Positions 39,814 to 43,932 of a DNA stretch of 64,000 bases are shown one piece after another. Under the pieces are notes generated by a model that ran no database searches, was not told the origin of the DNA, and saw nothing but the letters and a program-made list of their open reading frames with translations. The DNA lies in the IMG/VR virus record IMGVR_UViG_2974613666_000001, positions 1 to 64,000 of that record. One strand, 5' to 3'. How positions within the stretch are numbered: the first letter of the stretch is position 1; the number at the start of each line of letters is the position of its first letter. Source of the DNA: a virus (Duplodnaviria; Caudoviricetes). A program made the translations under genes and the position numbers.

Positions 39814-39977
39814 TATTTATATTGCTTGTAAGACTTACCCTGTATCTGAGTTCTTGTTAGTTCAAACGGTAGCGTGAACTTAACACCCCTGTAAGTTATC
39901 TGAACATCAGAATCAGTTTTTTTAATTCTGGGTAGTAGTTTGTAGAATAAATTGGCATTTTCTTCTGTTGTGTACAT
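39813..39977 (-). CDS. 54-aa hypothetical protein
   Basis: MYTTEENANLFYKLLPRIKK...ITYRGVKF...; TAATG-coupled to the next gene. Confidence 0.55.
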   Translation of the reverse strand: MYTTEENANLFYKLLPRIKKTDSDVQITYRGVKFTLPFELTRTQIQGKSYKQYK

Positions 39978-40837: not shown

Positions 40838-41027
40838 GGACTACAAGAGCTAAAAATAAGCTTAAGGGTCGTAGCCCTTGGGTATATTGATTTGAAAAGC
40901 TTACCTGACCCTCTCAGCCAACGTCAGGCGATCGTCTGAGGGGAAGCTTTTGTTTTTGTCATCGAGTTTTTCTGATTTCTCAGAGTTGCGTCAATACAGG
41001 TAGTCTGCGGGAATTGTCCCGGTTTTT
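40838..41027 (+). ncRNA. Candidate structured RNA with possible pseudoknot (5' end uncertain)
   Basis: Nested helices with plus-strand G.U pairs and a terminal hairpin followed by T5. Confidence 0.4.
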
Positions 41028-41029
41028 AA

Positions 41030-41753
41030 AATTTTGAGAATAGCTTTATACTTATCCGAAGTCTTCAGTAGTTCTTTTTTCACGCATCCCGGTCACAGGA
41101 GTTGGTACTCTGAAAGTTTCACCCTTTTATCCTAGTGGGTAACTTACTCTTACTCCTACCATCAGCAAGGTTCTTGAGTCGCCTGGTGAAATTCTTAGCT
41201 GGTGTCTTCTTAGCTCACTTATTGCGTCGTATTCCGCCTTCCGCTTACTTGACTTTATATACGAGAGTTCAAGTCCTCCACAGTTCGCTACACTGCTTTG
41301 TTTTGACCATTAACCAGAACTTCGTTTTATTACGGAGTTACGTTTCCGCATCAGCTTACAACCTTTTTCCTTTGGGCTAGTTTTACCGGGAACACCGCTA
41401 CCCCTCAGCTACTAAGAACTGCTATATAGTAACTTGACGCTACCCTAGCATATACTGCTTACCCTTCCAAGTTACACAGTCTTAGCACTTACTCATTCCC
41501 TCAAGGCTCCTATACTACCCATTCCTTGCAGAACTTCATACGTATCAGAGAGGTACTTGCCTGAGCATCTTTCTGGTTGCTCCGAGGTTATGCTCGGATT
41601 AGAATCTTGTTGACCTCTTTTATGAGGCTTTGCCTTACTCCCTACTCCCTGCCCTTCTAAAATAAATTAGATAGGTTGTGTTGTCGTGGTGGTTAGCATT
41701 CGCAAGATTAGCATCTGGTCACACTCGGCTTTACGCCGCAGGTATCAGATGCC
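41030..41753 (-). ncRNA. Large structured ncRNA, GOLLD-like
   Basis: No credible ORF; own sigma70 promoter; 5' stem GGCAUCUG/CAGAUGCU; many helices; 3' end GGAUGC..GAAAAAAGAA..GAAGAC..GCUAUUCUCA resembles the GOLLD 3' end as recalled. Confidence 0.6.
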
Positions 41754-41756
41754 TAA

Positions 41757-41786
41757 ATAATAGCACAGGATTTTGATATGAGTCAA
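41757..41786 (-). promoter_or_regulatory. sigma70-type promoter for the large ncRNA
   Basis: TTGACT-N18-TATTAT with an extended -10 TG. Confidence 0.7.
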
Positions 41787-41929
41787 ATGTTTTTTGTAAA
41801 TATTGCTTTGTCAGTTTTGTTTCGATCCTTATTAGGGATCGTGCCTTTGTTATAACTCCTATTTAGAAAATCAGGTAATACTGTTTCTGTTTCAATCCTT
41901 TATAGGGTTATAGCATTTTTATAGTTTAT

Positions 41930-43280
41930 TAAGTTTATAGTGGTCTAAAGCCCTACCATTTAAGATATACCATTTATTTTACAATTAATGTTGCTATTTT
42001 GTAAAATATCTAGTATACTTGAAGCAACAACATTAGCATCAGGTCGAAATGCTTAATCTTACTTACACCTACAAATTACAACCAACAGCGAAACAGATAG
42101 AAACCATAGAGCATAATCTCAACGTGTGTAAGTCTGTTTGGAACTATGCTCTATACGTCAGAAAGCTCTGGTACAATAGCCGTAGTTGTAAGATTAACCA
42201 ATGCTCTCTATTTCAGGAATATGTTGTTGAACCTTTTGAGTATCCTAACTACCATACTAAGTCTTCTGAATTAACACTTGCTAAAAAGACTAATCCTTTT
42301 CTTAAATCTGGTAATGCCCAAGCCATGCAGCAGACATTACGTAAGTTGGATAGAGCATTCAATGATATGAAGTCTAGAGGAATGGGGTTTCCTAGATACA
42401 AGAAAAAGATGAAGTCTTTTAATTTGTTAGGAGGTATATCAGTTCAAGGAAATATACTCAAGATGCCTCTACTTAAAGAGGTTAAGTTTAGAAAGTCAAG
42501 AGAAATTCCAGAAGGGTTCAAGGCTAAGCAAGTACAAATCATTAAAAAGGCAAGCGGTTACTACGCTAATTTAATGATAGAGCTTGATGTTAATGTTGCT
42601 AGTCCTACACCTCATGGTCATGCCTTGGGGATTGATGTAGGTATTCAAAACATGATAGCAACTTCCGACGGGTTGACGCTAAAAAGACCTAAGTTCCTAG
42701 ATAAAGCACTGCGTAAGATTAAATTACTACAAAGGAAGCTTAAAAAGAAAACTATTGGGTCTAATAACTGGAGAAGTCTGCAACATCGGATTGCTTTGTT
42801 ACATGAGGCTGTAGCAAATAGGCGTAAAGATTACCATTTTAAATTAGCTCACCAGTTGTGCGGAAATTCGGGAATGATATTTGTTGAAGATATTAACTTT
42901 GTAGCTTGGAGCAAAGGTTCATTTTCAAAACAGTCTCTAGATATGTGTCTAGGTCAATTCTTCAACATCCTTGAGTATGTCTGCTCTCAGACTGACACCT
43001 ACTTCAGTAAAGTAGATAAAAACTACACTTCTCAGATTTGCCCTAATTGTGGAACTCACACAGGTAAAAAAGACCTAAGTGTGAGGGTGCATAAATGTTC
43101 TGAATGTGGGTATGAGCGAGATAGAGACATAGCTGCTGCTGAAGTAATAAGAAATAGGGGTTTAGATAATATTGCGGTAGGAACTGCCGTGATTAAACAG
43201 TCCAGTAATGGCGTTCTAGCGGGGACTTCGGTCTAGTTAAGAGTCTAAATGGGAATCCCTTATCTTTAAGGGAAGTTCAA
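41930..43280 (+). mobile_element. IS200/IS605-family tnpB-only element
   Basis: Left end ...ggtctaaagccc after TTTAT; right end GAAT-hairpin-TCAA at 43253-43280; promoter TTGCTA-N17-TATACT (41991-42019). Confidence 0.8.
42049..43236 (+). CDS. tnpB: TnpB RNA-guided nuclease (intact RuvC D/E/D, Zn ribbon)
   Basis: TYTYKLQPT HTH, GIDVG, FVEDI, CPNC..CSEC, DRDIAAA. Confidence 0.93.
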   Translation: MLNLTYTYKLQPTAKQIETIEHNLNVCKSVWNYALYVRKLWYNSRSCKINQCSLFQEYVVEPFEYPNYHTKSSELTLAKKTNPFLKSGNAQAMQQTLRKLDRAFNDMKSRGMGFPRYKKKMKSFNLLGGISVQGNILKMPLLKEVKFRKSREIPEGFKAKQVQIIKKASGYYANLMIELDVNVASPTPHGHALGIDVGIQNMIATSDGLTLKRPKFLDKALRKIKLLQRKLKKKTIGSNNWRSLQHRIALLHEAVANRRKDYHFKLAHQLCGNSGMIFVEDINFVAWSKGSFSKQSLDMCLGQFFNILEYVCSQTDTYFSKVDKNYTSQICPNCGTHTGKKDLSVRVHKCSECGYERDRDIAAAEVIRNRGLDNIAVGTAVIKQSSNGVLAGTSV

Positions 43281-43380
43281 CCTAATGAGCTTCTTGCTTC
43301 TCCTTTCAGTTTCAATCACTGATAAGGGTTATAGAGTTTTTTCTGCCAAAACATATAAATTTCCGAAGATAAAATATAGT

Positions 43381-43895
43381 CTAGGTCAAATAATTGGCAC
43401 AAAGCTCAAAAGAAAGTGGCAAAATTGCATGAACATATTGCTAATACTAGAAAGGACTTTCATTGGAAAATAGCACATCAACTTTGTGATACTGCTCAAA
43501 CTATCTTTGTAGAAGATTTGAATTTAGTGGGATTGTCCAGGGGAATACTTGGCAAGCATTGTCTAGATGCTGGATGGGGACAATTCTTTGAAATTCTGGA
43601 GCAGTGTTGTTTTAAGCGTGGTGTATTTTTCCAGAAAGTAGATAGCCGAAAGACTTCTCAGATTTGCCCTAATTGTAGAATAGAAACGGGTAAAAAAGAG
43701 TTGTCACAGCGTGTTCATGTTTGTGAACATTGTGGCTATACAACTGATAGAGATGTTGCAGCCGCTCAAGTAGTTCTGATTAGAGGACTTGCAGCCGTCG
43801 GGCAGACGGTAAATATGCTTGCTGAGGGTAAATTCGTTGGAATCCCTGTGACGCAAGAATCCCCCCGGCTAGAAGCCGGGGGGAGTGTCAAGTGA
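43381..43895 (+). pseudogene. tnpB: 5'-truncated tnpB with its right end
   Basis: SNNWHKAQKKVAKLHEH...FVEDLN...CPNC..CEHC..DRDVAAA; right end gaatccccccggctagaagccgggggagtgtcaa. Confidence 0.88.
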
Positions 43896-43932
43896 ATCTT
43901 GATTTAGATGTAGCGTTGGATGAACACGAATA

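What the first reader, a model, noticed from the sequence alone, without database searches (positions are those of the whole stretch)
41889..43345. Intact TnpB element inserted inside a CRISPR spacer, making the spacer its guide
Removing 41930-43280 rejoins TTTAT with CCTAATGAGCTTCTTGCTTCTCCTTTCA into a 33-nt spacer and restores the array period (69 versus 70 nt). TnpB omegaRNA guides are known to come from DNA just beyond the right end, and the TAM equals the insertion motif. Both TAM and guide here would derive from the spacer, so this TnpB would be programmed against the original protospacer as well as IS-free arrays, with a repeat just downstream of the guide. This mirrors the proposed TnpB-to-Cas12 transition. 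A second tnpB remnant abuts repeat 3.
Basis: partly seen in the sequence, partly recalled or inferred. Interest (0 to 1): 0.9.

Follow-up and report, generated by a model that had tools for sequence, protein, structure and literature searches.

The report
Phage TnpB guide matches sibling phage
A Nodularia-type cyanophage carries a stranded but intact RNA-guided nuclease gene (TnpB) inside a leftover CRISPR mini-array, and its guide region exactly matches a site in a sister phage but not the phage's own copy, so it may serve in phage-against-phage conflict; no activity has been shown.

Summary
The observation largely holds. An intact tnpB (42049-43236) lies between the second and third of three degenerate CRISPR repeats. 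These belong to the DR5 family of filamentous cyanobacteria, also carried by cyanophage N-1. The element's right end at 43280 is confirmed by 62 related copies. The left end is not. The terminal hairpin is missing, profile homology starts only at 41976, and three TTTAT motifs give restored periods of 62, 69 or 78. The phage has no TnpA, Cas6 or Cas1, so the element is probably immobile. The nuclease motifs, omega-RNA scaffold and promoter look intact.

New here: TTTAT plus the first 15 guide bases match the sibling phage vB_NspS-kac65v162 exactly (20/20, about 1e-6 expected). The site lies 1.3 kb upstream of the syntenic spot, beside a hypervariable patch. This phage's own allele has five mismatches within guide positions 1-12, which should protect it.

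The proto-Cas12 reading is not. The repeats are unrelated to the omega-RNA and antisense to it, and none of about 160 related tnpB copies sits in an array. Cleavage is untested. A comparable phage TnpB case was noted earlier in this scan on other DNA.

The parts
41126..41145 (+). The phage's own allele (X') of the predicted target site: TTTAT followed by CCTAGTGGGTAACTT. It differs from the guide at positions 5, 8, 10, 11 and 12.
   Evidence: It sits at the edge of the most divergent patch (41139-41188, 27-43% identity to the sibling).
41819..41855 (-). Repeat 1 of the degenerate DR5-family mini-array. The canonical crRNA orientation is the minus strand. The hairpin is kept through a compensatory A-T to G-C change.
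   Evidence: DNA fold z = -4.6. Family assignment and PMC4916379 Table 4.
41856..41888 (.). Spacer 1 (33 nt), with no convincing protospacer.
   Evidence: The only hit is a 14-nt exact run in the helicase gene of both phages, 21/33 overall.
41889..41925 (-). Repeat 2. Its first 25 nt are clearly repeat-like; its last 12 nt are T-rich and poorly conserved.
41925..41929 (+). It is one of three TTTAT motifs (also 41918-41922 and 41934-41938).
   Evidence: Read directly from the sequence. TAM of the clade.
41926..41975 (+). 50 nt of undetermined origin, either a decayed or truncated left end, the remainder of the spacer, or both. It has no left-end hairpin.
   Evidence: (z = +0.6).
41976..43280 (+). 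The recognisable body of the tnpB-only IS200/IS605-type element (IS-A): promoter region, tnpB, omega-RNA and right end.
   Evidence: The closest copies are 72-83% identical in protein, in Pleurocapsales/Chroococcales-type cyanobacteria and metagenomes.
41978..42019 (+). Conserved palindromic promoter-like region (TTTACA-N18-TAAAAT on both strands, and TTGCTA-N17-TATACT).
42049..43236 (+). tnpB, 395 aa, intact. The RuvC residues are D196, E280 and D360 by motif, and the zinc-finger cysteines are C331/C334 and C350/C353.
   Evidence: It deviates at only 3 of 192 near-invariant columns, as ordinary relatives do.
43100..43280 (+). 3' scaffold of the omega-RNA, ending GGGAAGTTCAA. The terminal hairpin is kept by compensatory changes (CCCTTA/TAAGGG). 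The 5' limit is approximate.
   Evidence: 20 consensus pairs, 4 with compensatory changes; the window keeps the pairs.
43281..43308 (+). Guide-templating DNA in spacer position. Bases 1-15 (43281-43295), together with TTTAT, match sibling phage MK605244 at 39917-39936 exactly.
   Evidence: 8.8e-7 expected.
43309..43345 (-). Repeat 3, degenerate: a 1-nt insertion and no hairpin.
43346..43383 (.). A spacer-length stretch of 38 nt. The segment 43343-43359 matches an internal part of the sibling's RNA-ligase gene at 17/18, so it may be a ligase remnant.
   Evidence: (p about 0.01, uncorrected for six tests).
43384..43891 (+). 3' part of a second tnpB-only element (IS-B). It holds the C-terminal 159 codons (ORF 43416-43895), its omega-RNA region and a right end reading GGGGAGTGTCAA.
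43892..43932 (+). 3' end of the displaced RNA-ligase gene, which is also the guide template of IS-B. The empty site in the sibling reads CCCTTAT|GTGAATCTTGA.

Best explanation
What it is (shown): The window is the first 64 kb of a 145-kb Nodularia-type siphovirus. In it, a 1.58-kb segment (41804-43383) replaces the 5' part of the RNA-ligase gene and the 5' part of an older tnpB element (IS-B). The segment is a cas-less, degenerate three-repeat CRISPR mini-array of the DR5 family. A tnpB-only IS200/IS605-type element (IS-A) sits between repeats 2 and 3. Its right end is exact. The nuclease, omega-RNA scaffold and promoter look intact. The left-end hairpin is gone and the phage has no TnpA.

How it most likely works (inferred): IS-A is stranded but probably still expressed. 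TnpB would load an omega-RNA whose guide is copied from the 28 nt in spacer position. TTTAT plus guide bases 1-15 are identical to a site in the sibling phage kac65v162. ISDra2 TnpB needs about 12 TAM-proximal base pairs, so the complex should be able to cut sibling genomes that carry that allele during co-infection. The phage's own allele has five mismatches within positions 1-12 and should be spared. The outcome would be exclusion of the rival, or recombination with it.

How the guide arose (inferred): Most likely the second spacer was a mini-array spacer taken from a sibling phage, and IS-A later landed on the TTTAT inside it. That would have turned a CRISPR spacer into a TnpB guide with the same target.
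For: Phage identity and synteny. TnpB integrity. Right end. Omega-RNA covariation with the window's pairs kept. TAM of the clade. Repeat family and period: and PMC4916379. No TnpA, Cas6 or Cas1 in the genome. The 20/20 match to the sibling with the TAM in register, 8.8e-7 expected. Own allele mismatched at guide positions 5, 8, 10, 11, 12, next to the most divergent patch. No other TAM-adjacent near-match in the phage's own genome. The 12-bp TAM-proximal requirement and tolerance of distal mismatches in ISDra2 TnpB: PMC10097598. Related viruses carrying mini-array spacers against each other: PMC6858448. The sibling match begins at 41925, within one base of the predicted start of spacer 2 (41926), which fits a spacer origin.
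Against: No expression or cleavage data exist. The match to the only available sibling stops dead after 15 guide bases (5 of the next 13), so the full 33-nt spacer has no known source. The left end cannot be defined, so insertion by transposition into a spacer is not proven. The repeats are very degenerate, and two of the three lack the hairpin, so the array may never have worked in this phage. No IS-free array and no second copy of IS-A above 83% protein identity were found. The 12-bp rule comes from a TnpB that is only a distant relative. An intact ORF may simply reflect recent arrival.
Confidence: 0.45

Rival explanations
1. Inert wreckage. A degenerate array fragment, a stranded IS and a truncated IS piled up in a dispensable region where the RNA ligase was lost. 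The 20-nt match is a historical footprint of an old spacer or an old flank and has no present function.
For: The left-end hairpin is lost. Repeats R2 and R3 are degenerate. IS-B is truncated and the ligase destroyed. There are no cas genes and no tnpA. None of about 160 related copies sits in an array. These phages carry several tnpB genes.
Against: TnpB shows no excess of changes at conserved positions. The omega-RNA pairs, the terminal hairpin (via compensatory changes) and the promoter are all kept. Only the part needed for mobility is lost. The phage's own allele differs from the guide at exactly the positions that matter for cleavage.
Confidence: 0.3
2. Old-flank origin. IS-A was once inserted at site X (TTTAT|CCTAATGAG...) in a sibling phage, as any TnpB element would be. 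It reached its present place with 15 nt of its old right flank through illegitimate recombination. The array context and the restored period are coincidences.
For: A TnpB guide is by rule the flank of its insertion site. The match starts exactly at the right end and has the TAM in register in the sibling. The left end looks truncated. The region has clearly been rearranged.
Against: It needs two illegitimate junctions, one exactly at the TAM and one 15 nt past the right end. It also needs both junctions to fall between CRISPR repeats that the sibling lacks entirely. No X-left flank is detectable beside any of the three TTTAT motifs (p > 0.17). No phage with IS-A at X is known.
Confidence: 0.2
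3. Nascent type V system. TnpB is on the way to using the CRISPR array as a source of guides, a proto-Cas12.
For: A repeat lies 28 nt downstream of the omega-RNA scaffold. Insertion of tnpB near pre-existing arrays is an accepted possible route to Cas12 (PMC10691335). Cyanophage CL131 has a tnpB next to an array that was labelled V-U2 (PMC6293099).
Against: The repeats share nothing with the omega-RNA scaffold, so spacers 1 and 3 cannot be presented to TnpB. The repeats' canonical orientation is antisense to tnpB. The association is not conserved, with 0 of about 160 relatives in an array. There are only three decayed repeats and no adaptation genes.
Confidence: 0.03
4. The repeats work as decoys, such as RNA anti-CRISPR or solitary repeat units that soak up host Cas6 or type I-D/III proteins. 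The IS insertion between them is incidental.
For: R1 keeps a strong hairpin through a compensatory change. The phage has no cas genes. The repeat family is that of its hosts' arrays. This rests partly on my own knowledge of phage-encoded repeat decoys and was not tested here.
Against: R2 and R3 fold poorly or not at all. No expression data exist. It does not explain the 20-nt match of the guide region to the sibling phage.
Confidence: 0.12

Closest known systems
tnpB-only IS200/IS605-family (IS1341-type) elements with a right-end omega-RNA, e.g. ISDra2 TnpB
   Same: The domain set, RuvC triad and zinc finger match. The omega-RNA overlaps the 3' end of the gene and stops at a sharply defined right end. 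The TAM is TTAT-type and equals the insertion motif. The guide is templated by the flanking DNA.
   Different: The left-end hairpin is missing, there is no TnpA in the genome, and it is a single copy. The guide matches a site in another phage at a different locus rather than an IS-free copy of its own insertion site. The element lies inside a CRISPR mini-array.
Virus-borne cas-less mini-CRISPR arrays (Sulfolobus SPV viruses, PMC6858448; cyanophage N-1 DR5 array, PMC4916379)
   Same: It is a phage-borne array without cas genes, with repeats of the host's family (the same DR5 family as N-1). One spacer-position sequence matches a closely related virus but not the carrier itself.
   Different: The repeats are far more degenerate. 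The matching spacer is interrupted by an IS, so the targeting function, if any, would be carried out by TnpB rather than by host Cas proteins. The match covers only 20 of about 33 nt.
TnpB/Cas12 loci next to CRISPR arrays (type V-U2 label for cyanophage vB_AphaS-CL131, PMC6293099; V-U* groups, PMC10691335)
   Same: A TnpB-size RuvC nuclease sits beside CRISPR repeats in a cyanophage, and a repeat lies downstream of the nuclease gene.
   Different: There is no conserved association in the clade. The repeats are class-1 type, antisense and unrelated to the omega-RNA. The element lies inside the array rather than beside it.
Earlier finding of this scan (e1-5806320): a TnpB cassette in a soil-crust cyanophage whose guide is an alternative allele of the phage's own spike-gene end
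   Same: A transposase-less TnpB in a cyanophage whose guide template corresponds to an allele found in related phages. This suggests homing or exclusion of rivals.
   Different: There the target is the element's own insertion locus. Here the target is 1.3 kb away from the element, and the element is embedded in a CRISPR mini-array. I did not re-examine that finding.

Membership tests
IS200/IS605-family TnpB (OMEGA) element | TnpB protein with a split RuvC (D-E-D) and a zinc finger | tested here: met
   Pfam PF01385, PF07282 and PF12323. Motifs GIDVG (D196), FVEDIN (E280), RDRDIA (D360), CPNCG and CSECG. PDB hits to ISDra2 TnpB at 1.6e-28.
IS200/IS605-family TnpB (OMEGA) element | Conserved omega-RNA scaffold at the 3' end, stopping at a sharp right-end boundary | tested here: met
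   62 copies end in GAGGTTCAA and diverge right after it. The consensus fold has covarying pairs, and the window keeps them.
IS200/IS605-family TnpB (OMEGA) element | Subterminal left-end hairpin following the target motif | tested here: not met
   Relatives have (T)TTAT|C...CCCTC-hairpin-GGGATGNA. The window matches the left-end profile only from 41976 and has no hairpin (z = +0.6).
IS200/IS605-family TnpB (OMEGA) element | TAM equals the insertion motif (TTAT-type) 5' of the left end | tested here: inconclusive
   The clade motif (T)TTAT is seen in the related left ends found by their hairpin alone, and IS-B has an empty site. In the window three TTTAT motifs are candidates and none can be tied to a left end.
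IS200/IS605-family TnpB (OMEGA) element | Mobility: TnpA available, or several near-identical copies | tested here: not met
   No Y1 transposase in the 145-kb genome. The best copy elsewhere is 83% identical in protein.
CRISPR array (DR5 / type I-D-like repeat family of filamentous cyanobacteria) | Repeats belong to the family | tested here: met
   There are 2-3 mismatches to the 19-nt core GTTTCAATCCCTAATAGGG. The same core forms long arrays in 45 of 389 Nostocaceae genomes and appears in PMC4916379 Table 4.
CRISPR array (DR5 / type I-D-like repeat family of filamentous cyanobacteria) | Regular repeat-spacer period (69-77 nt in host arrays) | tested here: inconclusive
   R1 to R2 is 70. R2 to R3 is 62, 69 or 78 depending on which TTTAT marks the IS end.
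CRISPR array (DR5 / type I-D-like repeat family of filamentous cyanobacteria) | Near-identical repeats with the family hairpin | tested here: not met
   The repeats agree over the first 25 nt or so and diverge in the 3' third. Only R1 folds well.
CRISPR array (DR5 / type I-D-like repeat family of filamentous cyanobacteria) | cas genes in the same genome | tested here: not met
   No Cas6 (PF01881) and no Cas1 (PF01867). Other cas families were not searched.
CRISPR array (DR5 / type I-D-like repeat family of filamentous cyanobacteria) | Spacers that match foreign elements | tested here: inconclusive
   Reconstructed spacer 2 matches the sibling phage over 20 of 33 nt. Spacer 1 has only a 14-nt run. 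Spacer 3 has no match.
Type V CRISPR-Cas (Cas12, V-U) | Evolutionarily conserved linkage of the nuclease clade with an array | tested here: not met
   0 of about 160 related loci have CRISPR-like repeats in their 1.2-1.5-kb flanks.
Type V CRISPR-Cas (Cas12, V-U) | Repeats that supply the guide scaffold for the nuclease, in the same orientation | tested here: not met
   The repeats show no similarity to the element's right end or omega-RNA. Read on the minus strand, the repeats end in GGATTGAAAC or a variant of it (R1 GGATCGAAAC, R3 TGATTGAAAC), as host DR5 repeats do. That makes them antisense to tnpB. The link between this ending and crRNA direction rests on my own knowledge.

The most novel reading that the evidence does not exclude
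A phage keeps an immobilised TnpB as a weapon against its closest relatives. A mini-array spacer acquired from a sibling phage was converted, by insertion of a tnpB element at its internal TAM, into an omega-RNA guide with the same target. This would be a natural hand-over of a target from a class-1 CRISPR spacer to a TnpB nuclease that no longer depends on host Cas proteins. The hypervariable patch next to the target site would be the trace of the resulting arms race among sibling phages.
Probability: 0.25. Interest if true: 0.85.

Novelty: new variant of a known kind. Interest (0 to 1): 0.6.

Why it matters
TnpB is known as a nuclease that keeps its own transposon in place, and as the ancestor of Cas12. 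What the many phage-borne tnpB genes do is still open. A recent preprint reports strong induction of a cyanophage tnpB during infection without a known target.

This locus offers a concrete and testable target. The guide plus TAM match one cultured sibling phage (vB_NspS-kac65v162, host Nodularia spumigena KAC65) and mismatch the carrier itself at the positions that decide cleavage. If the match reflects function, it would show TnpB acting in conflict between viruses. It would also be a real example of a CRISPR spacer's target being inherited by a TnpB guide. That bears on how RNA-guided nucleases and arrays come together, even though this locus is not itself a proto-Cas12.

If it is only wreckage, it still documents how IS elements, array fragments and gene loss pile up in a cyanophage accessory region.

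Tried and rejected
1. Other copies of IS-A to define the left end. Scans of genome, viral and metagenome contigs gave nothing above 83% protein identity. A short BLAST and a profile HMM of related left ends found no homology left of about 41970.

2. Identity of the 50 nt at 41926-41975. I tested whether they are a decayed left end, a partial repeat or a copy of the right end. No alignment beat shuffled controls convincingly (best p = 0.03-0.07, uncorrected).

3. IS-free arrays or a full-length protospacer. These searches found nothing:
- exact 20- to 25-mers of the guide, spacer 1, spacer 3 and repeat 2 in IMG/VR;
- the guide 20-mer in metagenome contigs;
- BLAST against phages and plasmids;
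- a 23-mer with up to 3 mismatches in 389 Nostocaceae genomes, which gave 2 chance hits with no TAM.

4. More alleles of site X in IMG/VR, using a gapped pattern. The 10 hits were all non-homologous chance matches.

5. Extended homology of the IS flanks to the region around X, on either side. None was significant.

6. Rfam families in the window: none.

7. Whether IS-A's TnpB could also use the omega-RNA of the IS-B remnant. The two scaffolds share the 3' end motif but differ in the middle, so I left this as speculation.

8. Whether the sibling's full IS-B copy has an empty site in this genome. Its flanks have no match here.

9. An attempt to cite the repeat orientation from the Anabaena Cas6 preprint found no relevant text.
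Full report
CONTEXT. The window is the first 64 kb of a 145.4-kb IMG/VR virus record rated complete. It is about 96% identical over long stretches to Nodularia phage vB_NspS-kac65v162 (MK605244, genus Ravarandavirus, host Nodularia spumigena KAC65, Baltic Sea). I call that phage the sibling.

ANATOMY. The ORF at 42049-43236 is a 395-aa TnpB.
- It has the Pfam domains OrfB_IS605, Cas12f1-like_TNB and HTH.
- It has the RuvC motifs GIDVG, FVEDIN and RDRDIA and two CxxC pairs.
- It matches ISDra2 TnpB structures at E = 1.6e-28.
- Against 26 relatives it departs from only 3 of 192 near-invariant columns. Ordinary family members depart at 1-8.

A second ORF (43416-43895) is the C-terminal 159 residues of a different TnpB. 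It is 47-56% identical to the first. Its DNA (43384-43891) is 98.8% identical to a full-length element elsewhere in the sibling. I call the two elements IS-A and IS-B.

THE REPEATS ARE REAL BUT DECAYED. Only three sites in the whole genome resemble the repeat core. All are here and on one strand, starting at 41819, 41889 and 43309.

The core GTTTCAATCCCTAATAGGG forms arrays of up to about 100 repeats in 45 of 389 Nostocaceae genomes, with periods of 69-77 nt. It is the DR5 (type I-D-like) family, the same one that cyanophage N-1 carries as a cas-less, transcribed array (PMC4916379).

The three copies agree over their first 25 nt or so and diverge in the 3' third. R1 keeps a strong hairpin (z = -4.6) through a compensatory change, R2 folds weakly and R3 not at all.

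Read on the minus strand, the repeats end in GGATTGAAAC or a variant of it (R1 has GGATCGAAAC, R3 TGATTGAAAC). This is the usual crRNA orientation for the family (Table 4 of PMC4916379; the link to the 8-nt handle is my own knowledge). The array is therefore antisense to tnpB. The phage has no Cas6, Cas1 or TnpA, and the sibling phage has no such repeats anywhere.

ENDS OF IS-A. The right end is settled. In 62 related copies from cyanobacterial genomes and metagenomes the sequence ends in GAGGTTCAA and the flanks diverge at once. The window reads GGGAAGTTCAA, ending at 43280. The last omega-RNA hairpin is preserved by compensatory changes. The consensus fold of 35 copies shows covarying pairs, and the window keeps them.

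The left end is not settled.
- Related elements begin (T)TTAT|C, followed 15-20 nt later by a CCCTC...GGGATGNA hairpin.
- A profile of 29 such ends matches the window only from 41976, at the conserved palindromic promoter.
- The 50 nt at 41926-41975 show no hairpin and no significant similarity to anything tested.
- Three TTTAT motifs lie within 21 nt. They give restored repeat-to-repeat distances of 62, 69 and 78.

It is still one choice out of three and cannot be verified independently. With no left-end hairpin and no TnpA, IS-A is most likely immobile.

HOW THE REGION AROSE. In the sibling, the syntenic place holds an intact RNA-ligase gene. In the window, IS-B's right end (GGGGAGTGTCAA, ending at 43891) abuts the last 41 nt of that gene. 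The sibling shows the empty site CCCTTAT|GTGAATCTTGA, so IS-B inserted after a TTAT inside the ligase gene.

Later, the 5' 730 nt or so of IS-B and the 5' part of the ligase were replaced by 41804-43383. That segment consists of 15 nt, R1, spacer 1, R2, the uncertain 50 nt, IS-A, 28 nt, R3 and 38 nt. A 17/18 match of 43343-43359 to an internal ligase segment may be a leftover of that gene (p about 0.01 before correction). The surrounding phage DNA is 90-97% identical to the sibling while the repeats differ greatly from one another. The array was therefore probably already degenerate when it arrived.

THE NEW RESULT. I searched the 103 nt after the right end against the whole sibling genome. 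This gave a 15-nt exact match to guide positions 1-15. In the sibling those 15 nt are directly preceded by TTTAT, so TAM plus guide match 20/20 at MK605244 39917-39936. From base composition, 8.8e-7 such matches are expected in that genome.

The site, which I call X, lies 1.3 kb upstream of the ligase spot, inside the conserved non-coding region at 40.9-41.8 kb. The window's own allele (41126-45) reads TTTAT CCTAGTGGGTAACTT. It mismatches the guide at positions 5, 8, 10, 11 and 12. Immediately downstream lies one of the two most divergent patches between the two phages, at 27-43% identity.

For ISDra2 TnpB, about 12 TAM-proximal base pairs are needed. Double mismatches in positions 1-12 abolish cleavage, and distal mismatches are tolerated (PMC10097598). 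By that rule the sibling allele is a valid target and the carrier's own allele is not. No other TAM-adjacent near-match exists in the carrier's genome.

ORIGIN OF THE GUIDE. After 15 nt the match stops (5 of the next 13), and left of the TTTAT there is no detectable homology. Two readings remain.

(a) Spacer origin. Spacer 2 was a genuine mini-array spacer taken from a sibling phage with a third, unseen allele of this hypervariable site, and IS-A then inserted at its TTTAT. This needs the fewest events and explains the restored period. It also explains why the match begins at 41925, within one base of the predicted spacer start at 41926. It has a precedent in viruses that carry mini-array spacers against each other (PMC6858448).

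(b) Old-flank origin. IS-A once sat at X in a sibling phage, and the 15 nt are its old flank, moved here by illegitimate recombination. This follows the normal TnpB rule. It needs two precisely placed junctions that both fall between CRISPR repeats.

I favour (a) at roughly 2:1. Under either reading, what the TnpB would target today is the same.

WHAT IS NOT SUPPORTED. The locus is not a nascent Cas12 system.
- The repeats have no relation to the omega-RNA scaffold and are antisense to tnpB.
- TnpB could not draw guides from spacers 1 or 3.
- None of about 160 related tnpB loci has CRISPR-like repeats in its flanks.
- Insertion of tnpB near a pre-existing array has been proposed as one route to type V systems (PMC10691335). 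This locus shows that such insertions happen, and nothing more.

LIMITS. Nothing here shows expression or cleavage. Only one sibling genome was available. I found no IS-free array, no full-length protospacer and no closer copy of IS-A. An intact gene could simply be a recent arrival.

VERDICT. The best reading is a stranded but apparently functional TnpB and omega-RNA module in the spacer position of a phage-borne mini-array remnant, with a guide aimed at sibling phages (confidence about 0.45). The main rival is inert wreckage that preserves a historical footprint (0.3). I class it as a new variant of known kinds, and it can be tested directly with cultured phages and host.

Noticed in passing
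window 40895-41800: About 0.9 kb has no credible ORF. It is conserved with the sibling phage (86% overall) but has two hypervariable patches, 41139-41188 and 41596-41705. A strong minus-strand promoter-like site lies at 41786-41757. Other first-stage notes propose a large structured RNA here. Rfam finds nothing. The predicted TnpB target site lies inside this region.
   Followed up: partly
window 43384-43932 and L004 6040-6060: IS-B inserted after TTAT in the RNA-ligase gene, and the sibling shows the empty site CCCTTAT|GTGAATCTTGA. The IS-B flank matches the sibling's ligase allele for only 11 nt before a 6-nt indel. The IS-B remnant keeps its whole omega-RNA region although its tnpB is truncated.
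   Followed up: partly
window 41874-41887; own genome 101236-101249; MK605244 97514-97527: The last 14 nt of spacer 1 match the ATP-dependent DNA helicase gene of both phages exactly (21/33 overall, E about 0.01-0.04). Like spacer 2, the matching half is the one next to repeat 2. This may be chance.
   Followed up: partly
window 43343-43359: CTGCCAAAACATA-TAAA matches an internal segment of the sibling's RNA-ligase gene at 17/18 (L004 5528-5545). The stretch after repeat 3 may therefore be a ligase remnant rather than a spacer.
   Followed up: partly
window 41976-42007: The palindromic promoter-like element of IS-A (TTTACA-N18-TAAAAT on both strands) also points leftward. It could drive minus-strand transcription across R2, spacer 1 and R1 in the canonical crRNA orientation.
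   Followed up: no
own genome 66012-66929 (+) and 106013-106636 (-), outside the window: Two further, distant tnpB homologues (31-33% identity) lie in the same phage genome. The sibling phage has matches to this tnpB at five places. There is no Y1 transposase in this genome.
   Followed up: no
window 41823-41841: The hairpin of repeat 1 (CGATCC/GGATCG) differs from the family consensus (AATCCC/GGGATT) by a compensatory A-T to G-C change. This suggests selection for the hairpin, or descent from a different repeat subfamily.
   Followed up: no
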